DNA of 40,891 nucleotides. Origin: an uncultured Clostridia bacterium. GTDB lineage: Bacteria > Bacillota > Clostridia > Oscillospirales > UBA644. The DNA is taken from positions 1 through 40,891 of the forward strand of contig CALXAN010000061.1 of the NCBI GenBank assembly GCA_944386305.1. The letters run 5' to 3'. Under the pieces are notes generated by a model. The model ran no database searches and was not told the origin of the DNA. It saw only the letters and a list, made by a program, of their open reading frames with translations. Positions 2,041 to 32,577 of this stretch are shown here, in pieces (the first letter of the stretch is position 1; each line of letters begins with the position of its first letter). The position numbers were made by a program, and so were the translations under genes.

Positions 2041-3474
2041 ATGAAAAAGCTTTTAGCTTTGGTCATAACCCTGACCATGGCGCTGTCCGTGTTTTCCGTC
2101 TGTCTCTTTGCGGAAGAGGAAGAAAAGGAACCTATGCGCACTACGGCGACAGTCATTAACCCGCTGGTGGATATCTACAAGATAGGCACCGCGCCCAAGC
2201 GCGACGGTGTGGTGAGCGCCGGCGAATACGGCGACAAGATACATACCACCTACGAGGCGGGCAAGGAGGGCGAGTTCGACTATAACTACAACTTCCTCAG
2301 GGACGTCGACGCCGACTTCTACGCCTGCTGGGACGACCGGAACCTTTATTTGGCCTGGGTCGTACGCACTGACCATCACAGGGCCGATACTCCCGGTCAG
2401 GGGATGTGGATATGGAACTGCGTGCAGTTCGAGGTCTGCGACCGCGATCCGCGCTTAGAGGACAGGGTAGTGCTGTCTCTGGGCTGTGCTCCCGGTACGG
2501 GCGCGCAGGCCGGCAAGCAGCTTAGGGAGCTGTATAGTTCCGGGGGTCAAATTGATTTTAGTACTTTTTTTAGATCCTCAATGTGGCAGTTTACCGGCAA
2601 GAGGGACGATGCGGCCCAGACCACGACCTACGAGGTCAGCATCCCCTGGACTACGCTCAACACCGTTTCTATCAACGGTTACGGCGGATTTGGTGCTGAC
2701 ACCTCAGGCTTCGCCGCTCTCGGCGGCAAGGCTCAGGAAGGCACCGTCATAGGCCTGTCTTATGTGGTAAACGACACTACCGGTGTGCTGCAGATGGGCG
2801 CCGACCTGCCGGAGGGCGAGAGAGTGCCCGAATATGATACCACTGAGATGGAAACTTACGTCGGCTTTTGGGCTGACCAAAGGCACAGCGTACAGTGGGG
2901 CAGCTCCATACTCGGCGGATATGACGACGATGACGCCGGGATTGTGGCCGACAGCATGATGGCTGTAGTGACCCTCAGAGGCGAAAAGCAGGCCGATAAC
3001 GGCGATGACGACGATAACCAGGGCGGCAACCAGGGCGATAATAGCCAGGACGGAAACCAGGACGGCAATACTACCGACGACAACAATCCTTCTACCGGCA
3101 CTCCGTCCACAGGCGAACCCGCGACGGGCGAACCTGCTACAGGTACTCCTTCTACGGGCGTGCCCGAGACGGGCGCTCCGGCCACCGACGTGCCCGAAAC
3201 GCTCAATCCCGTAACCGGCTAGCCTCGGACTCCCGATGTCGACGAGCCTACGAATACTGACCCCGAAGACGAGGGCGGCAGCCTCCTGTGGCTGTGGATA
3301 GTCATCGGCGTAGTGGCCGCCGCGGCGATAGCGGCGATAGTCATAGTGCTGGTCAAGAAGAAGGGCGGTTCGGACGGCGATACTCCCGACGGCCCGACCG
3401 ACGGCCCGTCTCCCGAAGCCCCTGAGACCGGTGCAGCCTCCGACGAGACCGACACGGACGATAAACAGGAGTGA
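2041..3474 (+). pseudogene. Surface protein paralog 1 (signal peptide, CBM9/DOMON-like domain, PxTG-repeat stalk). An in-frame TAG at 3220-3222 separates a 393-aa ORF from an intact anchor-coding tail, so this is a truncated or secreted variant or a young pseudogene.
   Basis: TAG aligns with GAG (Glu) in both paralogs; the frame stays open through the WLWIVIGVVAAAAIAAIVIVLVKKK TM segment to TGA at 3472-3474; strong AAGGAGG RBS. Confidence 0.8.
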
Positions 3475-3934: not shown

Positions 3935-4230
3935 TTTTGCGGCAGTATGCCGCGGGGGATGATCAGAATATTGCCTTGCGGCGGTATGTAACGGGAAATG
4001 ATCAAAGTACAGCTTTTGCGTTGCGGCGGCATGCAGCGGGGGATGAACAGAATACTGCCTTGCGGCGGTATGCCGCGGGGGACGATCAGAATACAGCTTT
4101 TGCTTTGCGGCGGAATGTAACGGGAAATGACCAAAGTACAGCTTTTGCTTTGCGGCGGTATGTAACGGGGAATGACCGAAATACGGCTTTTGATTTGCGG
4201 CGGCATGCCGCGGGGAATGATACAGTTTTG
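3935..4230. repeat. Degenerate tandem repeat, 7 units of 39 or 45 bp
   Basis: GCGGCGGTATG..CGGG.ATGA units start at 3939, 3978, 4023, 4062, 4107, 4152 and 4197. Confidence 0.9.
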
Positions 4231-4378
4231 CATTGCTGCGAGTCGGGCGCAAAAGTGTTTTTGAAGTCGGCTTTATAAAGAACGGTTTTTGCGCGGGCAG
4301 AGCAAAATGAATTATTATACGGATAATTGAAAAAAAAGTGTCCATTATGTGTAATTTTATACATATATCAAAAATCTA

Positions 4379-4479: not shown

Positions 4480-5958
4480 ATGAAGAAGTTTTTATCTATA
4501 TTATTGTGCGCGCTGCTGACGGTATCCATGTTTGCGGTCTGCGCCTCTGCTGAGGAGCAAAAGACGACTTATGCGACCGTTATCAACCCTCCGGTCGATA
4601 TTTATAAGGTTACCACTTCGCCCAAGCGCGACGGCGTGGTCAGCCCCGGCGAATACGGGGACAAGATACATACCACTTATGAGGCGGGCAAGGAAGGCGA
4701 GTTTGATTACAGGTACAATTTCCCTAAAGACGTGGACGCCGATTTCTATGCCTGCTGGGACGACAGGGCCCTGTATTTGGCCTGGGTCGTGCGTACCGAC
4801 CACCACAGGGCCGACGTTTCCGGTCCTGAAATGTGGATATGGAACTGCGTGCAGTTTGAGATCAGCGACCGCGACCCGCGCGAGGAAAACAGCGTAGTGC
4901 TGTCCCTGGGCTGTGCTCCCGGTACGGGCGCGCAGGCGGGCAAGCAGCTCAAGCAGCTCTTTACCTCTACGGGCAAGTATCCCCTTGATTCTTTCTTTAG
5001 GTCTTCTATGTGGCAGTTTACCGGCAGCAGGGACGACGCCGCAGGCACCACGACCTACGAGGTCAGCATTCCCTGGACTACGCTCAATACCGTTTCTATC
5101 AACGGTTATAACTCGCTGGACACTGACACCACGGGCTTTGCCGCGCTGGGCGGCGAGCCGCAGGAGGGCATGGTTTTCGGCCTGGGCTATGTCGTCAATG
5201 ACACTACGGGCGTGCTGCAGCAGGGCGTTGAACTTCTGCCCGGCGAGCCTGAGCCCGAATATGACCCGAATGATATGGACTCTTATGTCGGTTTTTGGGC
5301 GGACCAAAGGCACAGCGTACAGTGGGGCAGCTCCATACTCGGAGGGTATGACCACGATGACTTTTTAGCCGACAGCATGATGGCGGTAGCCACTCTCCGA
5401 GGCGTAAAGGGCGCTGACGACGGCGGCGATGAAGACGACGGCCAGGGCGGAAACGGCAGCCAGGATGACAATCAGGGCAGCAGCCAGGGCGGCAATCAAA
5501 GCGGGAACCAGGACGGAAATACTACCGGCGGCAGCAATCCCTCTACCGGCACTCCGTCCACCGGTGAACCTTCCACGGGCGAACCCTCTACGGGTGTGCC
5601 CGAGACGGGCGCCCCGGCCACCGACGTGCCCGAAACGCTCAATCCCGTAACCGGCGAGCCTCAGACTCCCGATGTCGACGAGCCTGCGGATACTGACCCC
5701 GAAGACGAGGGCGGCAGCCTTTTGTGGCTGTGGATAGTCATCGGTGTTGTGGCCGCCGCGGCGATAGCTGCGATAGTCATAGTATTGGTTAAGAAGAAGG
5801 GCGGTTCGGACGGCGGTGCTCCCGACGACCCGGACGACGGCCCTGAGACCGACGCGGCCCCCGAAGCCGCTGGGCCCGATGCGGCGGCTGACGGCTCTGC
5901 CGCCGACAGCGCAGAAAATACCGAAGCGTCTTCGGACTCAGGCGCCGACGATAAGTAA
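4480..5958 (+). CDS. Surface protein paralog 2: signal peptide, CBM9/DOMON-like domain, G/N/Q/D linker, PxTG repeats, C-terminal TM helix and acidic tail (492 aa)
   Basis: MKKFLSILL..ASA signal; PKRDGVVSPGEY, DFYACWDDRALYLAWVV, TTTYEVSIPWTTL and GLGYVVND resemble CBM9-like motifs; TM + KKK; GAGGAGG RBS. Confidence 0.85.
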   Translation: MKKFLSILLCALLTVSMFAVCASAEEQKTTYATVINPPVDIYKVTTSPKRDGVVSPGEYGDKIHTTYEAGKEGEFDYRYNFPKDVDADFYACWDDRALYLAWVVRTDHHRADVSGPEMWIWNCVQFEISDRDPREENSVVLSLGCAPGTGAQAGKQLKQLFTSTGKYPLDSFFRSSMWQFTGSRDDAAGTTTYEVSIPWTTLNTVSINGYNSLDTDTTGFAALGGEPQEGMVFGLGYVVNDTTGVLQQGVELLPGEPEPEYDPNDMDSYVGFWADQRHSVQWGSSILGGYDHDDFLADSMMAVATLRGVKGADDGGDEDDGQGGNGSQDDNQGSSQGGNQSGNQDGNTTGGSNPSTGTPSTGEPSTGEPSTGVPETGAPATDVPETLNPVTGEPQTPDVDEPADTDPEDEGGSLLWLWIVIGVVAAAAIAAIVIVLVKKKGGSDGGAPDDPDDGPETDAAPEAAGPDAAADGSAADSAENTEASSDSGADDK

Positions 5959-6254: not shown

Positions 6255-6520
6255 AGTTTTCGCTTGATAAAAATTATTTTTTAAGCTTTGCGCAGCCACC
6301 CATACCGCATAAGCTTTCGCCTGTTAAAAAAAATTCTTTAGCTTTGCGCACCCTCTCTATATCGCATAAACTTTCTTTATATTAAAAAAATCTTTAAGCC
6401 TTATGCAGCTACCCATAACGCATAATATACGGCTTTCACTTATTAAAAATTATTCTTCAAGCTTTGCGCAGCTACACGTACAGCTTTCGCTTATTAAAAA
6501 AATTTAAGTTTCCGCATTCT
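6255..6520. repeat. Degenerate tandem repeat, ~5 units of 47-63 bp
   Basis: TTAAAAA..TT.AAGCTTTGCGCA..CGCATAA motif near 6284, 6340, 6397, 6460 and 6507. Confidence 0.75.
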
Positions 6521-7046: not shown

Positions 7047-7127
7047 TAGTATGCGCCGAAGAGATAGTTTATTTATACGGCTTTATAAAAGCCGATGAGC
7101 AAAAATATTATGAGGAGGAATTCTCGT

Positions 7128-8546
7128 ATGAAAAAGCTTCTATCAATAATATTGTCCATGCTGATGACGATATCTATGTTTTCGCTGTGCGCGGCGGCCG
7201 AGGAGGAGACGGAAACAGAGCACGCCAAGACTACCGCCACCGTTATCAATCCGGAGATTGATATCTACAAGGTTACCACGGCGCCCAAGCGCGACGGCGT
7301 GGTCAGCCCCGGCGAATACGGCGACAAGATACATACCACGTATGAGGCGGGCAAGGAAGGCGAGTTCGACTATAACTATAATAAGCCCAAGAACGTCGAC
7401 GCCGACTTCTACGCCTGCTGGGACGACAGGGGGCTGTATCTTGCCTGGGTCGTGCGCACGGATCATCACAAGGCGCCGAAGGCGGGCGCTGAGATGTGGC
7501 TGTGGAACTGCATACAGTTCGAGATCTGCGACCGCGACCCGCGCTTAGACGACCGCGTCGTGTCGGGCTGGAGCATAGCCGTAGGCACGGACGCCCAGGC
7601 GGGCAAAAATCTCAAGGCGGTACAGACCCAGCATCAGACGTTCCTAAAGACCAACATGTGGCAGTTTACGGGCAAGCGGGACGACGCGGCCAATACCACC
7701 ACCTACGAAATGATGGTCCCCTGGACCAGCCTAAATACCATTTCGGTCAGCGGCTACGGCGAGATCAGCCCCGACACCACGGGCTTCGCCGCGCTGGGCG
7801 GTAAGCCGAAGGAAGGCATGGTTATAGGGCTGAGCTACTCTGTCAACGATACCACCGGCGAAAAGCAGATAAACCCGCCCGACCTGGCTGAAGGCGAAGT
7901 TCCGCCCGAATATAAGGAGGACGAGGTCCTTGAAGGCTTTTGGGCCGACCAAAGGCACACCGTGCAGTGGGGCAGCTCCATACTCGGCGGATATGACGAC
8001 GAAGACGCCGGAATTGTGGCCGATAGCATGATGGGTGTGGCCACTCTCAGAGGCGTTAAGGAAACTCCCGACGATGGCGGAGATGACAACCCCGGCGGCG
8101 GAACCGATAATCCCGGCGGCGGCAATACCGACGACCCTGACGACGATAACCCCTCTACCGGCACTCCGTCCACGGGTGAACCCTCCACTGGCGAACCTTC
8201 CACTGGCGAACCCTCTACGGGCGTGCCCGAAACCGGCGTTCCGGCTACCGACGTGCCCGAAACTCTTAATCCCGTAACCGACGAGCCTCAGACTCCCGAT
8301 ATCGACGAGCCTACGGATACTGACCCCGAAGACGAAGGCGGCAGCCTTGTATGGCTGTGGATAGTCATCGGCGTCGTGGCCGCTGCGGCGATAGCTGCGA
8401 TAGTCATAGTGCTGGTCAAGAAGAAGGGCGGTTCGGACGGCGGCGATACGCCCGACGGTCCGGACGACGGCGCAGCCCCTGATACCACTGTGACCTCCGA
8501 GACCGATGCGGCCCCTGAGACCGACGCGGACGATAGTCAGGAGTAA
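7128..8546 (+). CDS. Surface protein paralog 3 (same architecture, 472 aa from the MKKLL start)
   Basis: GAGGAGG RBS before ATG 7128; collinear with paralogs 1 and 2; TM anchor intact. Confidence 0.85.
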   Translation: MKKLLSIILSMLMTISMFSLCAAAEEETETEHAKTTATVINPEIDIYKVTTAPKRDGVVSPGEYGDKIHTTYEAGKEGEFDYNYNKPKNVDADFYACWDDRGLYLAWVVRTDHHKAPKAGAEMWLWNCIQFEICDRDPRLDDRVVSGWSIAVGTDAQAGKNLKAVQTQHQTFLKTNMWQFTGKRDDAANTTTYEMMVPWTSLNTISVSGYGEISPDTTGFAALGGKPKEGMVIGLSYSVNDTTGEKQINPPDLAEGEVPPEYKEDEVLEGFWADQRHTVQWGSSILGGYDDEDAGIVADSMMGVATLRGVKETPDDGGDDNPGGGTDNPGGGNTDDPDDDNPSTGTPSTGEPSTGEPSTGEPSTGVPETGVPATDVPETLNPVTDEPQTPDIDEPTDTDPEDEGGSLVWLWIVIGVVAAAAIAAIVIVLVKKKGGSDGGDTPDGPDDGAAPDTTVTSETDAAPETDADDSQE

Positions 8547-8677: not shown

Positions 8678-8874
8678 CGGCCGCAGTATCCGTTTAGTCC
8701 CTATATGCCGCGGCTTGCTTTTAATTATGGTTTTATGCCTGTTATGCGGGGCTGCCGGCGTTCTCATCTCTTTCGTGCCGGTTATTGGGGGCTTGAGCCT
8801 TATCGCACGGCTGCAATGCGGTTTAATCTTAAGGCATTATCGCCGGCTGTGCAGCGGAATGCTGACTTTGGATC

Positions 8875-9397
8875 AAGCTGCCGGGAATCGAACACGGTGG
8901 GGCGGCTGATTTTTGTGCGTACCGCATTTTAATCCGAAAGGATTAACTGCGTGTTGCGCCTTGTCCGCACAAAAATCCGCTCGCTTAAAACGCACCGAAA
9001 AACGGCGCATATTTTTGTTTTTGCGGGTATCTTCGCCTTTACAGATTTGAGGGCGTACGTCAAAGACACCGCAGCAACTTTTTCTGCATATTTTGTTCGA
9101 CCCCCGTCAGCTTAAGCTGACGGGAGTCGAACCCCGCATGGTGCGGCTGATTTTTGTGCGTACCGCATTTTAATCCGAAGAGAGGGCCGGCGCCGTAAAA
9201 CGCCGAATAATGGACATGGGAATAAAGAAAGGCGTAAGCGTACATGTACGAAAAGTCGCGCCGCTCGGAGAGTCAGGGTTTTTTACGCCTTATTTGTACA
9301 AAAATCCGCTCGACTTTATCGAAAAAAATTACCCACGGATTTTCACCTTTACTATGAGACACCTTCGCAGCGACGCGTTTTTTTCGGCATATTTTGC
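8875..9397 (+). mobile_element. Two tandem copies of a dispersed MITE/REP-like element (copies A and B)
   Basis: Ends AAGCTGCCGGGA.TCGAAC / GTTCGAC.CCCG.CAGCTT; 38-bp junction palindrome at 9095-9132; shared internal blocks GCGGCTGATTTTTGTGCGTACCGCATTTTAATCCGAA and ACAAAAATCCGCTCG. Confidence 0.75.
9189..9271 (+). pseudogene. feoA: Internal fragment of a FeoA (ferrous iron transport protein A) gene embedded in repeat copy B
   Basis: Translates as GAVKRRIMDMGIKKGVSVHVRKVAPLG, the core of clostridial FeoA; N- and C-terminal parts are absent and there is no feoB in the window. Confidence 0.8.
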
Positions 9398-9774: not shown

Positions 9775-10070
9775 AAGCCGCGCGCAGGGCGTTTCGGCTT
9801 TTGGTCTGTATGTTATTAATCCCTGTCATTTCGAAGGATTGCGGCCGCGTGCAGGGCATGCGCTTATATGTCGGCCCGGCCGTGCAAAAAAGTACGGCAG
9901 AGCGTTTCGGCTTTTGGTCTATATGTTATTAATCCCTGTCATTTCGAAGAATTGCGGCCGCGCGCAGGGCATGCGCTTATATGTCGGCCCGGCCGTGCAA
10001 AAAAAGTACGGCTGGGCGTTTCAGGTTTGGGTCATGTGAGTCCCGTTATTCGAAAAAAAGTACGGCGGTT
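9775..10070. repeat. Tandem repeat, ~2.5 units of 113-114 bp
   Basis: GCGTTTCGGCTTTTGGTCT units at 9789, 9902 and (degenerate) 10016. Confidence 0.9.
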
Positions 10071-10185: not shown

Positions 10186-10417
10186 ACACTCAGCCGTCAC
10201 ATATATTTTTTTCCTGCCGCAGGTATGCGTCACTGATAGCTGATACAGACATTCAGCTGTCACATATGTTTCTTTCTTGACATAGATATGCATCACTGAT
10301 AGCTGATGCATACACTCAGCCGTCGCATATATTTCTCTCCTGCCGCAGGTATGCATTAGCTGATGCATACGCTCAGCCGTTACATATATTTCTTTCTTGC
10401 CACGTAGGTGGTATGCA
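10186..10417. repeat. Tandem repeat (63/63/57 bp) whose last unit overlaps the 3' end of hydA
   Basis: TCAGC(C/T)GT..CATAT.TTT..T.CTTG units at 10190, 10253, 10316 and 10373. Confidence 0.85.
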
Positions 10418-12122
10418 GGTCGTGGTGGGCGCGTTTGCAGCCGTAGGAACCCTTGTAGTATTCTTCGTAGAGGGTCTTGACTACGGGGGACAGGTGAGAC
10501 TTGCGTATGGTGCTGGCCTCGTCCATGTCGTACAGGGCTTTGGCGCGCAGCGCTTTTATGTCCGTGGTGTCGCGCACGTACTGCGGCTGTATGGGCTGGC
10601 CGCCGCCGTTTACGCAGCCGCCCGGGCAGCCCATGATCTCGACAAACGTCCAGTCGGCCTCGCCGCTGTGTATTTTGTCCATTACTTCTTTGGCCGCTTT
10701 TGCTCCGCTGGCCACGGCCACCTTTATCGTCTTGCCGCCCAGGTTTACCTGCGCCTCTTTTATGGGCGCGGTGCCGCGCAGCGCTGAGAAGTCTATCGGC
10801 TCGCCCTCGCCGCCGCTCAGCCAGTCGTTGGCCGTCCTGAGCGCGGCCTCCATGACGCCGCCTGTCGCGCCGAATATGGCCGCCGCTCCCGTGTCCTGCC
10901 CCAGCGGGTCGTCAAAGTCCTCGTCGGGCAGGTTTGTAAACATGAGGCCCGCCCTGCGTATCATGCGGCTCAGCTCCCTGGTGGTGATGACTATGTCCGT
11001 GTCTCTGTAGCCGGAGGCGTCCATGTTGTCGCGCGTGATTTCAAACTTCTTGGCCGTGCAGGGCATGACCGCCACGTTGATTATCGTGCCGGGGTCTATG
11101 CCGTATTTTTCGGCATAATAGGTTTTTATCACCGCGCCCGTCATCTGCATGGGCGACTTGCAGGTGGAGATGTGGTTGAGCATATCGGGGTAGTAGAACT
11201 CCGCAAACCTCACCCAGCCCGGCGAGCAGGAGGTTATCATGGGCAGGACGCTGTTGGATTTTATCCTTTCCAGCAGCTCGTGCGCCTCTTCTACTATCGT
11301 CAGGTCCGCGCCGAAATCCGTGTCGAAGACCTTGTCGAAGCCGAGCCTGCGCAGCGCCGCCACCATTTTGCCCTCCACGTTTGTGCCTATGGGCATGCCG
11401 AAGCATTCCCCGAGCGCAGCCCTGACAGAGGGCGCGGTCTGAACTATGACGGTTTTGGTCGGGTCGGAGAGCGCTTTCCACACCTTGTCGGTGTCGTCTT
11501 TTTCCACGAGCGCGCCCGTGGGACAGACTACCGTGCACTGGCCGCAGGCTATGCACGGCGTGTCCAACAGCGCCTTGCGGAAATGCGGCCCGATGCTGGT
11601 CTCCATGCCTCTGTCCGTAGGTCCTATGACGGATACGTGCTGCTCTTTGCACGCGGCCACGCACCTGCGGCAGAGTATGCACTTGGTGTTGTCACGCACC
11701 AGGTACGGGGTGGATTCGTCTATCTTGTACTTGGGGTTAAAGCCGCTGAACTTGTTTTCGTCCACGCCGTAGTCGTGGCACAGCTTGTGCAGCTCGCAGT
11801 TGGTCGACCTCAGGCACGACAGGCAGTCCTTGCGGTGGGTGGACAGTATCAGCTCCAGTGTGGTCTTGCGCGCGTTGCGCACCTTTTCGGTGTTTGTCTG
11901 TACCTCCATGCCCTCGCTGACGGGGTATACGCAGGCGGTCACCAGGCCTCTCGTGCCCGTGGCCTCCACCACGCATATCCTGCATGCGCCTATCTCGTTG
12001 GAGTCTTTCATGTAGCAGAGCGTAGGTATCTCTATGCCCGCGAGGCGCGCCGCTTCGAGTATAGTGGAGCCCTCCGGCACGCTGACCGGGATGCCGTTTA
12101 TCTTCAGATTAACGTTTTTCAT
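10380..12122 (-). CDS. hydA: [FeFe]-hydrogenase catalytic subunit (group A3, NuoG-like N-terminus)
   Basis: H-cluster motifs TSCSPGW, MPCTAKKFE and EIMGCPGGCVNGGGQP; 2Fe-2S, HxxxCxxCxxxxxC and 2x4Fe-4S motifs; GAGGTG RBS before ATG 12122. Confidence 0.96.
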   Translation of the reverse strand: MKNVNLKINGIPVSVPEGSTILEAARLAGIEIPTLCYMKDSNEIGACRICVVEATGTRGLVTACVYPVSEGMEVQTNTEKVRNARKTTLELILSTHRKDCLSCLRSTNCELHKLCHDYGVDENKFSGFNPKYKIDESTPYLVRDNTKCILCRRCVAACKEQHVSVIGPTDRGMETSIGPHFRKALLDTPCIACGQCTVVCPTGALVEKDDTDKVWKALSDPTKTVIVQTAPSVRAALGECFGMPIGTNVEGKMVAALRRLGFDKVFDTDFGADLTIVEEAHELLERIKSNSVLPMITSCSPGWVRFAEFYYPDMLNHISTCKSPMQMTGAVIKTYYAEKYGIDPGTIINVAVMPCTAKKFEITRDNMDASGYRDTDIVITTRELSRMIRRAGLMFTNLPDEDFDDPLGQDTGAAAIFGATGGVMEAALRTANDWLSGGEGEPIDFSALRGTAPIKEAQVNLGGKTIKVAVASGAKAAKEVMDKIHSGEADWTFVEIMGCPGGCVNGGGQPIQPQYVRDTTDIKALRAKALYDMDEASTIRKSHLSPVVKTLYEEYYKGSYGCKRAHHDLHTTYVARKKYM

Positions 12123-12141: not shown

Positions 12142-14034
12142 CTATCTCTTGCTTATGGCTTTTATCTTTTTGCAGTTGTCCATGCAGACGCCGCATTTTA
12201 CGCACTTTTCGCTCAGTATCTCAAACGAGGCCAGCTTGTGCCCCGGCGCGGTGTAATCCGTGCGTACGATGGCCTCCGCGGGACAGTTCTTGGCGCAGAG
12301 GCCGCAGCCTATGCACTTGTCTTTGTCTATGGTGTAGCTCAGCAGAGCCTTGCACACCCCTGCGGGACATTTCTTGTTTACTATATGCGCGAGATACTCG
12401 TCTCTGAAAAATCTCAGAGTCGCCAGCACGGGATTCGGCGCCGTCTGACCCAGGCCGCACAGGGAGTTCTGCTTGATATAATTGCACAGATACTCCAGCT
12501 CGTCCAGGTCCTCCAGCGTGCCCTTGCCCTCCGTTATCTTGTCCAGCTTCTCCAGCAGCCTGCGCACGCCTACGCGGCACGGGGTGCATTTGCCGCACGA
12601 CTCATCTACCGTAAACTCGAGGAAAAACTTGGCCATGTCTACCATGCACGTGTCCTCGTCCATGATTATCAGTCCGCCCGAGCCCATCATGCAGCCTATG
12701 GATATGAGATTGTCGTAGTCTACCTGCGTGTCTATGAGGCTGGCGGGAATGCAGCCGCCCGAGGGTCCGCCCGTCTGGGCAGCTTTAAATTTTTTGCCGT
12801 TGGGCACGCCGCCGCCTATCTCGTTGACTATCTCGTTGAGCGTGGTGCCCATGGGTATCTCCACCAGGCCCGTATGATTTATCTTGCCGCCGAGCGCGAA
12901 GACCTTGGTACCTTTCGATTTTTCCGTTCCCATTTCTGCGAACCAATCCGCGCCCCTGAGTATTATCTGCGGGATATTGGCCAGGGTTTCCACATTGTTC
13001 TCCGCCGTCGGGCATCCAAACAGTCCCTTTACCGCCGGGAACGGGGGCCTTGTGCGCGGCTCTCCGCGCTTGCCCTCGATGGACGTCATCAGCGCCGTCT
13101 CCTCGCCGCAGACGAACGCGCCCGCGCCGAGCCTGATATCGAGGTCAAAGCTGAAGTCCGAGCCCAGTATATGCCGGCCCAGCAGCCCTTCTCTGCGCGC
13201 CTCGTCTATGGCGACGCGCAGCCTGTGTACGGCTATGGGGTACTCCGCGCGCACGTAGACGTAGCCCTGGTCCGCGCCCACGGCGTAGCCCGCTATGGCC
13301 ATGGCCTCTATGATGCAGTGCGGGTCGCCCTCAAGCACCGACCTGTCCATAAACGCGCCCGGGTCGCCCTCGTCGGCGTTGCAGACTATGTATTTCTTGG
13401 GCCCGTCGGCCACAAAGCTCCACTTCTTGCCCGTCGGGAAGCCCGCGCCGCCGCGCCCTCTCAGACCCGACTGCGACACTATCGACACTACCTGGGCGGG
13501 CGTATATTCGCTCAGACATTTCGCCAGCGCCTGATACCCGTCCCTGGCCACGTATTCCTCCAGCGATTCGGGGTCTATGACGCCGCAGTTGCGCAGCACT
13601 ACCCGCACCTGCTTGCGGTAGAAGTCGGTTTCCGTAAGCGGTTTGACGTTTCCGTCTTCGTCCAGCGTCTCCGAGTATACGTATTTCTTTACCGGATTGC
13701 CGCCCACGATATGGCCTTCGAATATCTCATGTATGTGTTCGGGCTCGACCCTCGAGTAAAACACGCCCTCGGGGTACACTATCATTATCCGCCCCAGCGC
13801 GCACAGCCCGAAGCAGCCCGTGCGCACGACCTTTACTATGTCCTGCATGCCGTGGGCTTCGACCTCGGCTTTGAGCAGTTCTATGAGCTTTTCGCTGTTT
13901 GAGGACGTGCAGCCGGTTCCGCCGCAGACCATGATGTGGTACTTATACGTCTCCGTGCCCGTGATTCCGTCCCGCAGCGCCACAAGCTTGCGGCTTGCCC
14001 GGCGCAGGGCGTTAAGTTCTTCTATGGATTTCAT
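12142..14034 (-). CDS. hydB: Electron-bifurcating hydrogenase NADH/FMN-binding subunit (NuoF-like)
   Basis: SGLRGRGGAGFPTG, CNADEGDPGAFMDR, GAGAFVCGEETAL, ESCGKCTPCR; C-terminal 2x4Fe-4S; N-terminal thioredoxin-like 2Fe-2S. Confidence 0.95.
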   Translation of the reverse strand: MKSIEELNALRRASRKLVALRDGITGTETYKYHIMVCGGTGCTSSNSEKLIELLKAEVEAHGMQDIVKVVRTGCFGLCALGRIMIVYPEGVFYSRVEPEHIHEIFEGHIVGGNPVKKYVYSETLDEDGNVKPLTETDFYRKQVRVVLRNCGVIDPESLEEYVARDGYQALAKCLSEYTPAQVVSIVSQSGLRGRGGAGFPTGKKWSFVADGPKKYIVCNADEGDPGAFMDRSVLEGDPHCIIEAMAIAGYAVGADQGYVYVRAEYPIAVHRLRVAIDEARREGLLGRHILGSDFSFDLDIRLGAGAFVCGEETALMTSIEGKRGEPRTRPPFPAVKGLFGCPTAENNVETLANIPQIILRGADWFAEMGTEKSKGTKVFALGGKINHTGLVEIPMGTTLNEIVNEIGGGVPNGKKFKAAQTGGPSGGCIPASLIDTQVDYDNLISIGCMMGSGGLIIMDEDTCMVDMAKFFLEFTVDESCGKCTPCRVGVRRLLEKLDKITEGKGTLEDLDELEYLCNYIKQNSLCGLGQTAPNPVLATLRFFRDEYLAHIVNKKCPAGVCKALLSYTIDKDKCIGCGLCAKNCPAEAIVRTDYTAPGHKLASFEILSEKCVKCGVCMDNCKKIKAISKR

Positions 14035-14075
14035 TTAAACTCTCCTTCACTGACCTGTGTTCTGCCGCCTGCAAA

Positions 14076-14570
14076 TCAATCTCTGTACTTGGCTATTATT
14101 CCCGGTATGTCCTCGGGCACGAGCCGTCCGTAAACCTCGCCGTTTACGGTTATTACGGGCGCAAGCCCGCATGCGCCTATGCACCTGCATGCCGACAGCG
14201 AGAATTTGCCGTCGGGCGTGCATTCGTCGGCCTCTATGCCCAGCTCCTTGGACAGTTCGTCCATTATCGCGCCCGCGCCCTTGACGTAGCAGGCCGTACC
14301 GAGACATACGGAGATGTCCTTTTCCCCTTTCGGAGACAGTGAAAACTGCGCGTAAAAGGTCGAAATGCCGTACAGCTCGCTCATCGGTATATCCAGCTCG
14401 TCCGCCACTATCTGCTGTACCTCTATGGGCAGGTAGCCGTATATCTCCTGCGCTTTCTGCAGCGCGGGCATGGCTACGCCCTGCATGTCCCTGTTCTGCC
14501 TGAGCCAGTCCCGCAGCTGCGCTTCCTGCTCGGGCGTGCCTTTAAAGGGAATGTTGGAAAATTTTTTCAT
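14076..14570 (-). CDS. hydC: Electron-bifurcating hydrogenase 2Fe-2S subunit (NuoE-like)
   Basis: VCLGTACYVKG and CRCIGACGLAP; GGAGG RBS. Confidence 0.94.
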   Translation of the reverse strand: MKKFSNIPFKGTPEQEAQLRDWLRQNRDMQGVAMPALQKAQEIYGYLPIEVQQIVADELDIPMSELYGISTFYAQFSLSPKGEKDISVCLGTACYVKGAGAIMDELSKELGIEADECTPDGKFSLSACRCIGACGLAPVITVNGEVYGRLVPEDIPGIIAKYRD

Positions 14571-15054
14571 GCCGTTTCCTCCAAATTTATATAAACAAAG
14601 CTCGATTTCAAATTATATAGAAGATGCGTTCGATTTCATTAAGAATATTTAAATTGACATAAAATTCGATAGCCTCAGAAATATGTAAGTCCTCCGTATT
14701 TGCGCGAGCCTGAACCGAAACTTGGGCGGGATATGGGGACGGTGTCCCTGAAACAGGGCCTCTCGTCTTTTTGCCGCGGCGATTGCCCGCACTGAGTATT
14801 ATAGCATAAAATCGCCCGTTGTTCCACATTATTTAATAAAATATGTCAAAAAAAATTTTTCCTCTTTTTACAAATAAATCTGCGGCGTAACCCATGCGGA
14901 TTCAAATCGTCTCCAAAGGCTGAAACCCTCCGTCTCCGCGGCGGTTTTTACGACGCCGAACCGCTGAAAAACGGGGCTCCGCGTATTTCCTCGGAAATAT
15001 AATGCGCCTGCGTATCTCGAGGTATTTTCGTTTTTCGAACATACGCCTGCGGGC

Positions 15055-15343
15055 GGAATTGCTCGAAAGTTCGCGATATTTTCCTCAGATTTCAGACTAA
15101 AAGCGGTATTTGCTTCAGATTTCAGACGGAATTGCTCGAGAATTCGCGATATTTTCCTCGAGTTTCAGGCGGAATTGCTCGAAAATTCGCGGTATTTTCC
15201 TCGGATTTCAGACTGAATTGTTCGAGAATTCGCGATATTTTCCTCGGATTTCAGACTGAATTGTTCTAAAGTTCGCGGTATTTGCCTCGAGTTTCAGACG
15301 GAATTGATCGAAAGTTCGCGGTATTTGCCTCAAAATTCGAGCG
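15055..15343. repeat. Tandem repeat, ~6.5 units of 43 bp without spacers
   Basis: Unit GGAATTGCTCGAAA.TTCGCG.TATTTTCCTC...TTTCAGAC. Confidence 0.9.
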
Positions 15344-15361
15344 GCCTAAAATTTGTCGTTT

Positions 15362-15618
15362 GAGCCTGAGCTGGCGGGAGTCGGGCAAAATATGCCGAAA
15401 AAAAATACGCTTCTTTTACATACCGCAGGTCTGCAAGGGAGAATAACCTGTCTGCAAAGGCAAAAATCCGTCGTTCTTTTCGCTGCAGTTTTGCGCGGGC
15501 GGATTTTTGTGCGGACAGGGCATAACGCAGTTAATTTTTTTCGAATTAAAATTCTAACGCAGTACGCGCGAAAATCAGCCGACCCGTGTCGTACTCGGCT
15601 CTTATGAAGCTTAAGCTC
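15362..15618 (-). mobile_element. Copy C of the dispersed MITE/REP-like element, inverted orientation
   Basis: Reverse complement reads AGCTTAAGCT..CGGCTGATTTTCGCGCGTAC..TTTTAATTCGAAA..TGTCCGCACAAAAATCCGCCCGC..TTTTTTCGGCATATTTTGCCCGACTCCCGCCAGCT, the same block order as copies A and D. Confidence 0.75.
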
Positions 15619-15665
15619 GGGCCTGACGTCGCCGAACGTTTAGGCGCCAGCGCGTTCTTTAGCCC

Positions 15666-15840
15666 GCAAAAGCATTTATACGCACGGCAGAATGCAAAGC
15701 CGCCGATCGCTTAACCCGGCTGCCGCAGACTGCCTATTCTCGGGCCTGACGCGCACGCCTGCGTATTCTCAGTCTGCAAAAGCATTTATACGCACGGCAG
15801 AATGCAAAGTAGCCGATCGCTTAACCCGGCTGCCGCAGAC
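15666..15840. repeat. 65-bp near-identical direct repeat, period 110 bp
   Basis: GCAAAAGCATTTATACGCACGGCAGAATGCAAAG..GCCGATCGCTTAACCCGGCTGCCGCAGAC at 15666 and 15776. Confidence 0.9.
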
Positions 15841-15863
15841 CTCTTAGGCTGGCGGCAAATGTA

Positions 15864-16307
15864 CTATTTTGTCTTAAATTGTTTAGAACAATCGTGGTTT
15901 TCGGTATTTTCAGGCTGTTTATGCCCGCCGCAGCGGTGTTTAAACAGCTCGGGCAGGTCCCGGGCCGCCAGTATCCGTCCGCACGGCTCAAAGCCCGCGC
16001 AGAGCGCCGTCTTTCGGTCGGCTTCGGTAAGCGGGGAGAACTCCGCCTCCTTCAGCCCGCACAGGTCGAAGAAATTGAGCACGGCCCTGCACAGCAGGAA
16101 CATGGCCTCCTCGTCCCTGCCTGCGCCGGCTGCGGCGCGCATGGACACTATGACGCCCCTGTCCGCCTCGATGCGCGACTGCGCCGCGCCGAGCAGCCCG
16201 TTTTCTTCGGCCGCATGGCAGAAAGCGCGCGGTATGTACTCCATGCCGCATCGCCTGCATATATCCTTTTGTTCCTCGGTGTCCTGCACGGGTCTTATGG
16301 TCAGCAT
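15864..16307 (-). CDS. Hypothetical protein, possibly GNAT-like fold (147 aa)
   Basis: GGAGGA RBS before ATG 16307 (MLTIRPVQD...); the upstream part of the 247-aa ORF overlaps the dehydrogenase gene and is spurious. Confidence 0.7.
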   Translation of the reverse strand: MLTIRPVQDTEEQKDICRRCGMEYIPRAFCHAAEENGLLGAAQSRIEADRGVIVSMRAAAGAGRDEEAMFLLCRAVLNFFDLCGLKEAEFSPLTEADRKTALCAGFEPCGRILAARDLPELFKHRCGGHKQPENTENHDCSKQFKTK

Positions 16308-16393
16308 TGTTCCTCCGTCCGTCCGCCGTCGGCGGACCTTGAGCCGCAAACGTCCCCGCGGCGAGGTTGAGCGCCGCGGGGATAGGCAAAAAA

Positions 16394-17341
16394 TTATATA
16401 TCGAGCTGGGCTATGGCCGACTTGAGCGTGTCCACGCTGTGCATAAATGCGGACAGCTCCTCGTCCGTAAATTTGGGCGTGAGCACCCTCTTTATTCCGC
16501 CCGCGCCCACTATCGCGGGCAGGCTTATGCTCACGTCCGTCACGCCGTATTCGCCGTGCATGACGCAGGACACGGGCAGCACGGTGTCCCTGCCGCTGCA
16601 TATGCACTCGCAGATATGCGTCACCGCCACGGATACTGCAAAGAACGTCGCGCCCTTGTTCTTTATCACCACCGCGCCGGAGGTGCGCACGTATTCCTCT
16701 ATCGCCTCGTGGTCAAGCTCCTGGTACCTGATATGCACGGGGTCCAGGCAGTCTCTGTAGTCGTCTACCGGTATGCCCGCCACCGAGGCCATGGACCAGG
16801 GAATGAACGAGCTGTCCCCATGCTCGCCCAGCACGAACGCATGCACGTTGCGCTGGCTTATGGCCAGGGTGTCCGCTATCCTGGCTTTGAGGCGCGAGGT
16901 GTCGAGTATGGTGCCCGAGCCTAAAATGCGGCTGTCCGGGACTCCGGATATGCGTGAAAAGACGTAGGTGAGTATGTCTACCGGATTGTTTACAAACAGG
17001 TAGACGGCGTTGGGCGCATGCTTGACGATTTTTTCGGTTATGGACTTGAGGATATTGACGTTGGTCTGAGCCAGATCGATTCTGCTCTGGCCCGCCTTGC
17101 GCGCGATGCCCGAAGTCACTATGACTATATCCGAGTTGGCCGCGTCGCCGTAATCGCCCGAATATATATTCAGCGCATGGCAGAACGGGGCGCCCTGGCG
17201 TATGTCCATAGCTTCGCCGAACGCCTTTTCCTTGTTTATGTCTATCATGACTATCTCGGCCGCCACGCCCTTGACCGCCATCGTGTAGGCTATGGTCGAA
17301 CCCACGTTGCCCGCGCCGATTATGGTTATCTTGTTGCTCAT
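16394..17341 (-). CDS. mdh: LDH/MDH-family NAD-dependent 2-hydroxyacid dehydrogenase, probably malate dehydrogenase
   Basis: GAGNVG, NPVD, GTILDTSR and GEHGDS motifs; substrate loop GIARKAGQSRIDL has Arg at the position that is Gln in true LDH. Confidence 0.75.
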   Translation of the reverse strand: MSNKITIIGAGNVGSTIAYTMAVKGVAAEIVMIDINKEKAFGEAMDIRQGAPFCHALNIYSGDYGDAANSDIVIVTSGIARKAGQSRIDLAQTNVNILKSITEKIVKHAPNAVYLFVNNPVDILTYVFSRISGVPDSRILGSGTILDTSRLKARIADTLAISQRNVHAFVLGEHGDSSFIPWSMASVAGIPVDDYRDCLDPVHIRYQELDHEAIEEYVRTSGAVVIKNKGATFFAVSVAVTHICECICSGRDTVLPVSCVMHGEYGVTDVSISLPAIVGAGGIKRVLTPKFTDEELSAFMHSVDTLKSAIAQLDI

Positions 17342-17437
17342 CTTTGTCCATCCTTTCTTTTGTCGGAGCTCGTTTGTTAAAGTTGCCCTTTTCCCTTATA
17401 TCTCAGTGATGTTCTGCTTACGGCCTGTTTATTAAAG

Positions 17438-19818: not shown

Positions 19819-19847
19819 ATTATAATATCGATTCATCATTTTGTCAA
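19819..19847 (-). promoter_or_regulatory. Consensus sigmaA promoter of the nfnAB-mdh operon
   Basis: Minus strand reads TTGACA-17 nt-TATAAT. Confidence 0.75.
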
Positions 19848-24175: not shown

Positions 24176-24384
24176 GACATTCGCGCGCGCCTCATATTTG
24201 CGCGCGGACGGGGTATAATAGCTTTGTGAGCCTGTCGGCGTTTTTTTGCCGAACGGCGGCGCGGGCGGGAAAATGCGGATTTGACGATTAAGCAAGCTGT
24301 CGGGAGCCGAAAAATGCGGCGCTGCTTTTTGTCCCTGTGCCTGAGAGCTCAAAGGCAGAAACTCGCCGCTGCGGCGGTGCTTAC

Positions 24385-24668
24385 GTTAAAGACGAAAATT
24401 TATCCGCGTCATTGCGGCGGCACATTTCTACCTCGGTGTATGCTCGTAGATCTTAAGACAGAAACTTATCCGCGCCGCTGCGGCGGCACATTTCGGTCTC
24501 GGCGTATGCCCGTAGATCTTAAGACAGAAACTTATCCGCGCCGCTGCGGCGGTGTACTTGACATATGTCCCCAGGCCCGCAAAGGCAAAAAAATATCCGC
24601 GTCACGGCGGCGCAGCCTCGGCGTATGCACGTGGATTTTAAGACATAAATTTATCCCTGCCGCTGCGT
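24385..24668. repeat. Degenerate tandem repeat, ~4 units of ~66 bp
   Basis: TTAAGACAGAAACTTATCCGCGCCGCTGCGGCGG at 24453 and 24519; degenerate copies near 24386 and 24638. Confidence 0.85.
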
Positions 24669-25001
24669 ATCTGTTTGCAGGCCCGCAAGGGCGAAAATCC
24701 GACGGAGCCGTTTTTCGGCGCGGTTTTAAGCGTGCTGTTTTGCGCGCCGTAGTATTTTGTGCTGCTGCGGCTGATCTTTTCGGGTCGGTATGTGCGCGCC
24801 GAGTCAGCCGCCACGTATTTTGCCCCAATCCCGGCAAGTTTGACACAGGATAGGCTCGGCGGGCGGCCTGGTCATGGTTTAAAAAAGCCTTTGCCGAAAG
24901 GTCAGTTTTTCTGTTAATAATAAGCTTTATCAAAAGATTCGGCGCTCGGCTTTGTACGGGCCGCCGTATTTTAGTTATATTAGTTATAGGAGATATGCAA
25001 T

Positions 25002-31953: not shown

Positions 31954-32577
31954 TAAGCTGCCGAACGACGAACCCGATATGGCTTTAAGCGGCTGATTAT
32001 CTGCGTTAAAATCCGAAAGGATCCCTTGTCCGCACAAAATCCGTCTGCTTAAAACCCACCGAAAAGAGACGAATTTTTACCTTTGCAGTCTTGCGGGGTT
32101 ATTCTCCTTTGTAGATCTGCGGGGGGTGTACGTTAAAGATACCGAAGCGCATTTTTTTCGGCATATTTTGTTCGACTCCCGGCAGCTTGGCTGCCGAAAA
32201 CCGAACCCGATATGGTTTTAAGCGGATGATTTTCGTGTGTACAGCGTTTTAATCAGAAAAGGATGTTTTTGTCCCTTGTCCGCACAAAAATCCGCCCGCT
32301 TAAAACTGCACGCACCGAAAAAACAGCGAAGAGAGATAATTTGCAGACCTGGCGTCAAAGACGCTTATTTTTTTCGGCATATCGTATACATCTCCCGGCA
32401 GCTTAAGCTGCCGGGAGATGTATACAGTATTCTGATTTGGCGCACGCACTGCGTTATATTAATCCGAAAGAATCGACCGCCCAATAATTTGCTCCCGAAA
32501 AGCGGTGCCTTTCGCCTTCTGCGGACGTACGTCAAAGACGCAGCGGCATATTTTTGGCATATTTACTGCCTTAAGCT
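31954..32577 (+). mobile_element. Three tandem copies (D-F) of the dispersed MITE/REP-like element
   Basis: Units bounded by TAAGCTG/CAGCTT at ~31954, 32188, 32404 and 32577; shared blocks AATCCGAAAG, CTTGTCCGCACAAAAATCCG, CGTCAAAGAC, TTTTCGGCATAT; perfect 42-bp palindrome at 32384-32425. Confidence 0.78.

What the first reader, a model, noticed from the sequence alone, without database searches (positions are those of the whole stretch)
8875..9397. Dispersed structured element with terminal inverted repeats that forms tandem arrays (6 copies at 3 loci)
Seen: the same ordered blocks recur at 8875-9397 (x2, +), 15362-15618 (x1, -) and 31954-32577 (x3, +). The order is AAGCTGCCGGGAGTCGAAC / GCGGCTGATTTTTGTGCG / TTTTAATCCGAA / variable segment / CGCACAAAAATCCGC / CGTCAAAGAC / TTTTCGGCATATTTT / GTTCGACTCCCGGCAGCTT. 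Units are ~170-285 bp. The ends are ~19-bp inverted repeats, so head-to-tail units meet in palindromes centred on TTAA, and an internal inverted pair encloses the variable segment. All copies are intergenic, two loci lying between convergent genes. Known: non-autonomous MITEs and REP/BIME mosaics have this layout and are mobilised in trans. Inference: an unnamed non-autonomous mobile or structured-RNA family, likely abundant genome-wide. No cognate transposase is in the window.
Basis: partly seen in the sequence, partly recalled or inferred. Interest (0 to 1): 0.72.

Follow-up and report, generated by a model that had tools for sequence, protein, structure and literature searches.

The report
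Widespread structured mobile repeat without transposase
The repeats are real and belong to a previously undescribed family of ~270-bp, hairpin-rich, inverted-repeat mobile elements that is spread across a whole class of gut bacteria, keeps its fold through compensating mutations, and has no recognisable transposase beside it.

Summary
The 1.62-Mb MAG holds 54 profile matches at 38 intergenic loci. Units have ~19-bp terminal inverted repeats and mostly TA/TTAA flanks. In arrays they always lie head-to-tail.

A covariance model of the core finds full-length relatives in 9 of 45 other genomes of the family and 22 of 150 of the order. It also finds them in 11 genomes of other orders of the class, with 1-18 copies each.

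In relatives the element is a sharp ~275-bp unit with 23-26-bp inverted ends. TA lies on both sides in three lineages. Three stems (the ends, plus two internal hairpins) are kept by compensatory changes: 90% paired against 69.5% in shuffles, 0 of 500.

No Rfam family matches. None of 69 flanking ORFs has a transposase domain. IS630, IS30, Y1 and IS4/5 transposases do not track the element.

Best reading (0.6): an orphan, structured MITE family moved in trans. In this genome it is old (mean identity 0.69) and array-forming. Some array junctions have been homogenised into perfect palindromes. A transcribed RNA role is not excluded.

The parts
8875..9113 (+). Unit 1, full length (inverted ends, two internal hairpin domains)
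   Evidence: nhmmer 8869-9117, E 2.4e-70. The core model R1 matches 8890-9004 at 107 bits. Sequence read.
9095..9132 (.). Junction palindrome between units 1 and 2, centred on TTAA. It has one mismatch and carries a compensated variant in both arms.
   Evidence: (I6). Junction score 17, where only 1.5% of random end pairs reach 16.
9114..9397 (+). Unit 2, disrupted. The 5' end and 3' body are present, the apex has been replaced, and there is no 3' inverted repeat.
   Evidence: nhmmer matches 9111-9181 (model 9-90) and 9280-9396 (model 101-256).
9189..9271 (+). 83-bp fragment of a feoA-like gene captured inside unit 2
   Evidence: BLASTN 95.2% identity over 83 bp to C81:6106-6188, which lies in a small ORF whose translation looks like FeoA. 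The FeoA name comes from my reading of the translation and no family search was run.
15363..15621 (-). Unit 3, a solo full-length copy. TTAA lies at its 5' end and its 3' end is decayed.
   Evidence: nhmmer E 5.6e-70. R1 matches 15474-15596 at 97.8 bits. Flanks read.
24294..24840 (-). Fourth locus, not in the finding. It is a long copy whose second hairpin domain is expanded by 58-66-bp tandem repeats (24388-24670).
   Evidence: nhmmer 24547-24836. A match to the inverted end with 2 mismatches at 24294. R1 matches 24709-24822. Repeats D16/D20. Sequence read.
31955..32188 (+). Unit 4, full length and first of an array of three
   Evidence: nhmmer E 1.7e-65. R1 matches 31975-32068.
32189..32404 (+). 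Unit 5, full length with a shortened second domain. Its 5' and 3' ends are of different sub-types.
   Evidence: nhmmer E 1.8e-46. R1 matches 32208-32324. Ends read.
32384..32425 (.). Perfect 2 x 21-nt junction palindrome between units 5 and 6. The arm sequence is idiosyncratic.
   Evidence: I9. Junction score 21 of a possible 24, the highest of all 1221 end pairs scored.
32405..32577 (+). Unit 6, degenerate and truncated
   Evidence: nhmmer 32402-32577, E 1.2e-14. R1 matches 32425-32504 at 37.8 bits.

Best explanation
The repeats belong to a large, undescribed family of structured, non-autonomous inverted-repeat elements (MITE-type).

What an intact element looks like. It is ~270-280 bp with no ORF. 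It is closed by 19-26-bp terminal inverted repeats, which form stem P1. Inside are two independent long hairpin domains. P2 has a small apical hairpin. P3 is closed by a short A/T-rich stem.

How it most likely moves (inferred, not shown). It is cut and pasted as DNA by a DDE-type transposase supplied in trans. That enzyme recognises the inverted ends and inserts at TA, with a 2-bp duplication. It is not encoded next to any copy, and it is not one of the IS families I tested.

Why the hairpins persist. The internal hairpins are under constraint across genera, as the compensatory changes show. Two explanations are possible. The enzyme or a host factor may read them. Alternatively, a compact fold may make insertions in transcribed intergenic DNA tolerable.

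What this genome shows. The family here is old and decayed. Its ends start with A and finish with T, so every resident copy offers half of the preferred TTAA context. Later copies therefore landed in the flanking TA and built head-to-tail arrays that share one TA. At some junctions the two abutting ends were later made identical, most likely by hairpin-templated repair.
For: Shown in this genome:
- 54 profile matches at 38 intergenic loci in the own genome.
- The centre of the flanking tetramer is TA at 24 of 37 5' ends and 21 of 33 3' ends. TTAA occurs 15 and 10 times, against a genome frequency of 0.06 for TA and 0.003 for TTAA.
- Members of an array always share one orientation (11 of 11 multi-hit loci).
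- 4 loci touch contig ends, as multi-copy repeats do.

Shown in relatives:
- Unit borders are sharp.
- G002 has 3 copies that are 99% identical at unrelated loci, with perfect 26-bp inverted ends.
- G046 has 31 end matches and many ~275-bp pairs plus deletion derivatives. TA lies directly outside 7 of 7 left and 6 of 6 right ends.
- G184 has TA at at least 8 of 10 left and 9 of 10 right ends.
- G270 has TA on both sides of the one copy read.

Distribution of the core model R1:
- 9 of 45 other genomes of the family.
- 22 of 150 other genomes of the order, in 10 of 30 families.
- 11 genomes of other orders among 150 scored in the class.

Structure:
- RNAalifold on a plain MAFFT alignment of 15 copies from 9 genomes predicts P1, P2 and P3. 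30 of 39 pairs show double changes.
- On that alignment 90.0% of cells pair against 69.5% in shuffles, 0 of 500 for all five measures. Slid controls give 34-47%.
- The core alone across 46 distinct copies gives 81.7% against 67.4%, 0 of 500.

Non-autonomy:
- 0 of 69 flanking ORFs carry a transposase or recombinase catalytic domain.
Against: - No autonomous partner was found anywhere. The own genome has no Y1, TnpB-type or DDE_3 match. Its only two IS-like genes have unrelated ends: an IS1182-like gene on C107 and an IS30-like gene on C17.
- IS630, the usual TA-duplicating family, is over cut-off in 4 of 151 genomes of the order. Only one of those carries the element. It is in 0 of 5 copy-rich genomes of other orders.
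- IS30 is in 3 of 23 element-positive genomes and 22 of 128 element-negative ones.
- G184 and G153 are 98-99% complete and hold 10-11 copies each, yet have no Y1_Tnp or DDE_Tnp_1 match.
- No empty site was seen, so mobility and the TA duplication are inferred. TA could instead be the outermost part of the element.
- In G002 the flanking dinucleotides are TT/TT, AA/AA and TG/TT, not TA.
- Conservation of internal hairpins by covariation across a class is not expected for a plain DDE-mobilised MITE.
- Within the own genome the same core helices show almost no covariation: 74.6% paired against 73.7% in shuffles.
- All genomes with many copies are draft assemblies, and these lose multi-copy IS.
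Confidence: 0.6

Rival explanations
1. The primary entity is a structured RNA. It would be either a cis-acting leader or 3'-UTR module, or a small RNA. The conserved three-stem fold would be an RNA fold under selection, and the DNA copies would spread secondarily by transposition or recombination.
For: - There is strong covariation in P2 and P3, which a DDE enzyme should not need.
- Conserved unpaired blocks lie inside the core.
- The fold of one unit is more stable than its shuffles (z -3.2).
- In genus g28 the element's 5' end lies 12-49 nt from an RBS-preceded start codon reading away from it in 10 of 17 copies, against 1 of 17 at the 3' end.
- The Bacillus bcr1 repeat is a precedent for a mobile repeat with a compensated two-stem fold that is transcribed (review passages).
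Against: - There is no orientation bias in the own genome. Where geometry allows a test, 9 loci are co-oriented and 4 anti-oriented, and 3 of the 9 lie in one spacer.
- In 29 copies from other genera the counts are 10 against 8.
- Neighbouring genes are functionally unrelated.
- No sigma-70-like promoter was found in two arrays or in one G184 copy.
- The strand test is contradictory. A.C cells outnumber G.U cells 120 to 51 on the model-fitted core alignment, but the count is 17 to 25 on the unbiased alignment.
- Sharp inverted ends and near-identical dispersed copies still require a DNA mobility mechanism.
Confidence: 0.2
2. The element moves through a circular or hairpin intermediate made by a site-specific (tyrosine or serine) recombinase. 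The junction palindrome (end + TTAA + end) would be the recombination site. Arrays would be integrated multimers or integrations into a resident copy's end.
For: - The junctions look like recombinase core sites, with two inverted arms around a short AT-rich centre.
- Perfect junction palindromes exist even between diverged units.
- A 2-bp identical flank also fits a serine-recombinase crossover.
- No transposase was found.
Against: - Insertion sites share nothing beyond TA.
- In G002 the flanking dinucleotide differs between copies when read in the element's own frame. A fixed crossover core would not allow that.
- Array units are 56-85% identical, not the near-identical copies an integrated multimer would give.
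- No recombinase lies beside any copy.
Confidence: 0.07
3. It is a REP/BIME- or REPIN-like element, or an IS200/IS605-derived palindromic element. A Y1 HUH transposase (RAYT/TnpA) would move it as single-stranded DNA and recognise the hairpins.
For: - Hairpins are conserved as structure rather than as sequence.
- Copies cluster in intergenic DNA.
- The three G002 copies sit in the loops of pre-existing hairpins.
Against: - Y1_Tnp gives 0 matches in the own genome, while the control rings in 6 of 14 genomes. It also gives 0 in G184, G153 and G027.
- TnpB-type Zn-ribbon gives 0 matches.
- The units are ~270 bp with true terminal inverted repeats and symmetric TA flanks, unlike REP, REPIN or IS200/IS605 ends.
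- Array members are all co-oriented (11 of 11), whereas BIMEs alternate (recalled).
Confidence: 0.05
4. It is not mobile. It would be an ancient intergenic sequence multiplied by local tandem duplication and segmental duplication.
For: - Own-genome copies are old (mean pairwise identity 0.69).
- Arrays exist.
- No empty site was seen.
Against: - There are 38 dispersed loci between unrelated genes.
- Borders are sharp at the inverted ends and flanks are unrelated in G002, G046 and G184.
- G002 has 99%-identical copies at three unrelated loci.
- The distribution across genera of one family is patchy.
Confidence: 0.03

Closest known systems
Correia / NEMIS elements of Neisseria (MITE)
   Same: Small, ORF-less and multi-copy in intergenic DNA. 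They have terminal inverted repeats and TA at both ends, fold into a long hairpin, and have no transposase in the host genome. The TA duplication, the sizes and the orphan status are recalled. The review passages seen only show the NEMIS fold as typical of MITEs.
   Different: Correia elements are about 100-155 bp (recalled) and form one simple fold-back. The element here is ~275 bp with two separate internal hairpin domains kept by covariation. It occurs in a Gram-positive-type gut class, and here it forms head-to-tail arrays. No sequence similarity was tested.
bcr1 repeats of the Bacillus cereus group
   Same: [quoted passage not shown]
   Different: The passages give 5-bp direct repeats for bcr1, not TA. 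Its ~155-bp size, its lack of long terminal inverted repeats and its limitation to one species group are recalled. The present family spans a class. Homology was not tested.
REP / BIME / REPIN with RAYT
   Same: Intergenic, palindromic and clustered. They are thought to be moved in trans (abstract of PMC3337134, listing).
   Different: REPs are 20-40-nt palindromes moved by a Y1 transposase, and BIME members alternate in orientation (recalled). Here the units are ~270 bp, all co-oriented, and no Y1 gene is found.
IS30-type tandem dimers and end-targeting (IS30)2
   Same: Head-to-tail copies whose inverted ends abut across 2 bp. IS30 also prefers palindromic targets and its own ends (recalled, and no paper was read). 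The own genome has one IS30-family gene.
   Different: That gene's flanks show no similar ends. IS30 genes do not co-occur with the element: 3 of 23 positive genomes against 22 of 128 negative ones.
BOX / RUP / SPRITE of Streptococcus pneumoniae
   Same: Small intergenic repeats of a Gram-positive bacterium, some of them modular tandem arrays, with predicted RNA-level folds (review passages; abstract of PMC3049150).
   Different: The sizes and module logic differ. BOX has no terminal inverted repeats, and RUP is about 107 bp (recalled).

Membership tests
MITE (generic definition: review passages) | Small (under ~400 bp) with no transposase ORF | tested here: met
   Units are 173-283 bp, plus one 547-bp copy with an internal repeat expansion. 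Only short spurious ORFs overlap them.
MITE (generic definition) | Terminal inverted repeats | tested here: met
   About 19 bp in the window. 23-26 bp, perfect or nearly so, in G002, G046, G184 and G270.
MITE (generic definition) | Target-site duplication flanking the ends | tested here: inconclusive
   TA lies on both sides in G046 (7/7 and 6/6), in G184 (at least 8/10 and 9/10), and in the own genome (24/37 and 21/33). G002 shows TT/TT, AA/AA and TG/TT. Without an empty site the TA cannot be told apart from the element's own last bases.
MITE (generic definition) | Many dispersed copies | tested here: met
   38 loci in 1.62 Mb, and 1-18 copies in 42 other genomes.
MITE (generic definition) | A full-length IS with the same ends | tested here: not met
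   None was found in the own genome. End-anchored searches of G046, G047, G002 and G270 found none either. All of these are drafts except in completeness score.
MITE (generic definition) | Filled versus empty sites in close relatives | tested here: inconclusive
   The flanks of a G046 copy are not conserved in 15 congeners. Contigs of 4 public runs cover the window's copies only in short pieces, with no joint across an element.
IS630 / Tc1-mariner-derived MITE | TA duplication together with an IS630-family transposase in the host or its mobilome | tested here: not met
   The TA flanks fit. However DDE_3 gives 0 in the own genome. NF033545 is over cut-off in 4 of 151 genomes, of which 1 is element-positive, and in 0 of 5 copy-rich genomes. 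No match in 50,697 phage or 72,556 plasmid records.
REP / BIME / REPIN | Short GC-rich palindromes, alternating orientation, and a RAYT (Y1) gene | tested here: not met
   Units are ~270 bp. All array members are co-oriented (11 of 11). Y1_Tnp gives 0 in the own genome.
Any Rfam family (release 15) | A match at the gathering score | tested here: not met
   In the window only RNase P matches. 14 element loci scanned at E<=1 gave only 5 sub-threshold hairpin-type hits, none reaching its family's gathering score.
ISfinder-listed IS ends | Similarity of the ends to a catalogued IS | not testable with these tools

The most novel reading that the evidence does not exclude
The ~275-nt three-stem module is itself the functional unit of a new kind of mobile element. 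It would be a class-wide structured RNA or single-stranded DNA that spreads without any dedicated transposase in its host. It might do so by recruiting a housekeeping nuclease or recombinase, or by an RNA-mediated route. The head-to-tail arrays with perfect junction palindromes would then be footprints of that unusual mechanism rather than of serial TA insertions.
Probability: 0.12. Interest if true: 0.85.

Novelty: new variant of a known kind. Interest (0 to 1): 0.6.

Why it matters
- The element was found in 43 genomes in all (the own genome plus 42 others), spanning many families of a gut-associated bacterial class. It has no Rfam entry, and three full-text literature searches here found no description. 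It should therefore be annotated. It breaks assemblies, inflates intergenic regions and can be mistaken for regulatory RNA.
- It combines classical MITE hallmarks with internal hairpins kept by compensatory change over long evolutionary distance. It also shows a consistent absence of the usual transposases, even in nearly complete genomes with 10-18 copies. That makes testable the question of what actually moves orphan bacterial MITEs and why some keep a fold.
- Three side observations give concrete handles on how such elements interact with host DNA repair and gene expression. These are the array junctions, the captured gene fragment, and the insertions into terminator-like hairpins or just upstream of start codons in some lineages.

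Tried and rejected
Searches that found nothing:
- BLASTN of one unit against 40 relatives gave 0 matches. This was a sensitivity limit, since the covariance model later found relatives.
- Exact-motif scans of genome contigs (48 loci) and metagenome contigs (65 loci) gave only chance matches. nhmmer found nothing beyond the motif itself.
- The two look-ups of earlier findings of this scan returned nothing.
- BLASTN against phages and plasmids gave no match.

Structure and strand tests:
- RNAalifold on the first own-genome alignment A1 gave 0 pairs because the alignment was poor.
- The own-genome core alignment shows almost no covariation.
- The strand-of-fold test by G.U against A.C counts was contradictory, so no strand is claimed.
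- The tRNA idea for the end sequence was dropped. ARAGORN found 0 genes in the window and in 9 loci.
- The terminator idea for junction palindromes was dropped. The scan does not call them, and only small internal hairpins followed by T runs are called.

Public sequencing runs:
- No RNA holder was listed.
- Four DNA runs laid on 13001-33000 gave only short contigs. Some were identical to the window. None joined across an element.

Mobility tests:
- The empty-site test in the genus of G046 failed because the flanks are not conserved.
- The apparent orthologous pair G005/G018 turned out to be a ~535-bp composite repeat that is itself multi-copy. I therefore drew no purifying-selection argument from it.

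Hunt for the mobilising enzyme:
- No link was found for Y1, TnpB-type, DDE_3, DDE_Tnp_1, rve, IS630 or IS30.
- The IS1182-like gene on C107 and the IS30-like gene on C17 in the own genome have unrelated ends.
- Solo end-like matches in G270 lie next to ordinary genes. One adjacent 708-aa ORF is a signal-peptide surface protein by my reading of its translation, with no Pfam or NCBIfam family.

Step left undone:
- One end-pattern search in genus g6 was not run, so the end-anchored search for an autonomous element is missing for G005, G018, G012 and G023.

Full report
**1. The observation**

Repeat detection recovers the shared blocks and the palindromic junctions.

A profile made from ten copies finds 54 matches in the window's own 1.62-Mb, 129-contig genome, the best at E 1.9e-76. 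They cluster into 38 loci.

It is a 547-bp copy whose second half is expanded by 58-66-bp tandem repeats.

Eleven of the 38 loci have two or three matches, and in all eleven the matches point the same way. Four loci touch contig ends.

All loci are intergenic by a crude ORF call. Of 31 loci with two neighbours of at least 150 aa:
- 13 lie between co-oriented genes, 10 between divergent genes and 8 between convergent genes.
- The genome-wide background is 681, 168 and 158.
- Where orientation can be judged, 9 loci are co-oriented and 4 anti-oriented, with three of the nine in one spacer. This is no clear bias.

**2. Anatomy in this genome**

A full unit has four parts:
- a ~19-bp 5' end;
- a long imperfect hairpin, P2, whose apex is a 7-bp stem with a four-base loop;
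- a second region, P3, closed by a short A/T-rich stem;
- a 3' end complementary to the 5' end.

One unit folds at -99 kcal/mol, with z = -3.2 against shuffles.

The copies are old. Mean pairwise identity of 21 near-full copies is 0.69, with a range of 0.56-0.85.

The tetramer across each end is TTAA at 15 of 37 5' ends and 10 of 33 3' ends. Its centre is TA at 24 and 21 of them. The inner A (5') and inner T (3') are better kept than the outer bases. This fits an element that starts with A and ends with T, sitting between two TA.

**3. Array junctions**

The two ends of one unit are no more complementary than random pairs of ends. The mean score is 8.4 for 19 units against 8.3 for 1195 pairs.

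Abutting ends of neighbouring units behave differently. They score 21, 17 and 15 in three of seven junctions, and only 1.5% of random pairs reach 16.

Three more near-perfect junction palindromes were seen by eye on C100, C118 and C11. The script missed these because their centres are shortened. One of them has no recognisable unit on its left.

The arm sequences differ between junctions, and each difference is mirrored in the other arm. Five-prime ends of the rare sub-type occur only in such junctions, whereas the matching 3' sub-type also occurs at solo ends. This suggests that one arm was copied from the other.

I read this as hairpin-templated correction of quasi-palindromes. That is a known mutational process which I recall from the literature and did not test here. 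Selection for a hairpin is the alternative. The terminator scan does not call these junctions.

Unit 2 carries 83 bp of a feoA-like gene at the apex of P2, 95% identical to the gene on C81. This looks like break repair with ectopic filler DNA.

**4. The family is much wider than this genome**

BLASTN found nothing in 40 relatives, and two exact-motif scans of public collections gave only chance matches.

A covariance model of the 124-position core, R1, changed the picture. Full-length matches were found in:
- 9 of 45 other genomes of the same family;
- 22 of 150 other genomes of the order, in 10 of 30 families;
- 11 genomes of other orders among 150 scored in the class, with up to 18 copies per genome.

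In these genomes the element is a sharply bounded unit of about 275 bp:
- G002 has three copies that are 99% identical, with perfect 26-bp inverted ends. Each lies in the loop of a different locus-specific inverted repeat, two of them followed by a T run. The flanking dinucleotides are TT/TT, AA/AA and TG/TT.
- G046 has 31 end matches, comprising many ~275-bp pairs, shorter deletion derivatives and copies cut by contig ends. TA lies outside 7 of 7 left and 6 of 6 right ends.
- G184 has ten copies with TA at at least 8 of 10 left and 9 of 10 right ends.
- G270 and G013 show the same layout.

The outermost bases of the ends differ between genera. The inner part of the ends and the whole internal layout are clearly homologous.

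**5. The fold is conserved by compensation**

On a plain MAFFT alignment of 15 copies from 9 genomes, RNAalifold predicts the end stem P1, part of P2 and the closing stem of P3. 30 of 39 pairs show double changes.

Counting that structure on the alignment gives:
- 90.0% paired cells against 69.5% in shuffles;
- 125 doubly changed cells against 39.9;
- 0 of 500 shuffles reaching the observed value for any of the five measures;
- 34-47% for slid partners.

The core alone, on 46 distinct copies, gives 81.7% against 67.4%, 0 of 500.

Three caveats apply. The structure was derived from the same alignment. One of the alignments was fitted to the model. Copies within a genus are not independent.

For P1 the covariation may only reflect the two ends co-evolving with one binding protein. 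For P2 and P3, which are local hairpins, it shows that pairing itself is kept.

Within the own genome the core shows almost no covariation, at 74.6% against 73.7%. This fits decay after activity ceased.

I could not decide which strand folds.

**6. What moves it**

None of 69 ORFs flanking copies in 20 genomes carries a transposase or recombinase catalytic domain. They are unrelated housekeeping genes.

Own genome:
- No Y1, TnpB-type or DDE_3 match.
- One IS1182-like gene and one IS30-like gene, both with unrelated ends.

Across 151 genomes of the order:
- IS630-family genes pass the cut-off in 4, and one of these is element-positive.
- IS30-family genes occur in 3 of 23 element-positive genomes and 22 of 128 element-negative ones.

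Copy-rich genomes:
- Five from other orders have no IS630 match.
- G184 and G153 have no Y1 or DDE_Tnp_1 match.
- End-anchored searches in G046, G047, G002 and G270 found only short elements and solo ends.

Phage and plasmid collections hold nothing similar. The mobilising enzyme is therefore unknown. Draft assemblies lose multi-copy IS, so absence is not proven.

**7. Relation to genes**

In genus g28 (G184, G153) the element's 5' end lies 12-49 nt from an RBS-preceded start codon of a gene reading away from it in 10 of 17 copies. The same holds for 1 of 17 at the other end.

In 29 copies from other genera the counts are 10 and 8. The test uses short flanks and a simple rule.

It hints at a directional signal in the element in that lineage. 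No promoter consensus was found in one such copy.

**8. Comparison with known kinds**

The element meets the MITE definition in size, inverted ends, copy number and lack of an ORF (review passages). It fails the test for a cognate IS, and the target duplication remains unproven.

It is not REP/BIME-like and matches no Rfam family.

The nearest analogues are:
- Correia elements, for their TA flanks, inverted ends and orphan status (recalled);
- Bacillus bcr1, for its two compensated stem-loops and mobility.

Three full-text searches found no description of such an element in this bacterial class. I saw only listings and abstracts, apart from the passages of PMC3184786. ISfinder could not be consulted.

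**9. Verdict**

The finding is real and its interpretation is largely right. It is the visible tip of a class-wide, undescribed family of structured orphan MITEs.

In this genome the family is old. It forms head-to-tail arrays through insertion at the flanking TA (inferred), and some junctions were later homogenised into perfect palindromes.

The conserved fold and the missing transposase are unexplained, and they are what makes the family worth following up.

Noticed in passing
window 9189-9271: An 83-bp piece of a feoA-like gene, 95% identical to C81:6106-6188, replaces the apex of the first hairpin domain of unit 2. It looks like filler DNA from break repair, or a Pack-MITE-like capture.
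   Followed up: partly
window 3937-4235, 6258-6492, 9784-10004, 10186-10431, 15060-15338, 25850-26226: Six further intergenic tandem-repeat arrays are unrelated to the element, with periods of about 45, 57-63, 113, 63, 43 and 234 bp. This small genome has unusually long, repeat-filled spacers. Spacers that hold the element are 333-2507 bp.
   Followed up: no
window 2041-3222, 4480-5958, 7095-8546: Three tandem paralogous genes, with segments 73-90% identical at 2.4-2.7-kb spacing (D1, D2, D4, D8). The third has no Pfam family. Each is followed by a different repeat array, and the last by the element array.
   Followed up: no
window 34318-34671 (-): Bacterial RNase P RNA class A at 260.8 bits, lying just upstream of the long ORFs at 35043-39035 and 39049-40890. 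I take these to be rpoB and rpoC from their size and position only, and no family search was run on them.
   Followed up: no
window 31430-31666: A 24-bp in-frame repeat (7 copies, D3) lies inside the 726-aa ORF 29585-31765. That ORF has a Listeria-Bacteroides repeat domain.
   Followed up: no
L126 (own genome C107:17280-20945), 1192-1216, 1342-1383, 2864-2905: An IS1182-like transposase gene (DUF772 + DDE_Tnp_1_6, 482 aa) is bracketed on both sides by the same 27-nt perfect palindrome, and a third copy of the palindrome lies nearby. This looks like insertion into, or duplication of, a hairpin target. One copy of the element lies about 80 bp away.
   Followed up: partly
L188 1392-1528 and 7465-7601; L181 1501-1637 (genome G002): All three G002 copies sit in the loop of a locus-specific inverted repeat. 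Two of these are followed by a T run, so they are terminator-like hairpins downstream of genes such as a MatE transporter.
   Followed up: partly
L190 846-1381 and 10977-11504; L184 (genome G005); L187/L205 (G018): In genus g6 the element is nested in a larger ~535-bp repeat that is itself multi-copy (97-98% identical within G005). This repeat is shared at 88% identity with a second species.
   Followed up: partly
L246-L255, L212 (G184); L256-L261, L215 (G153): In this genus the element's 5' end lies 12-49 nt upstream of start codons of genes reading away from it in 10 of 17 copies, against 1 of 17 at the 3' end.
   Followed up: partly
window 13001-33000 laid on runs X1-X4: Short contigs identical to the window (0 differing letters) occur in chicken-gut and feces metagenome runs at depth 2-4. 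The organism is therefore a low-abundance gut member in those runs.
   Followed up: no
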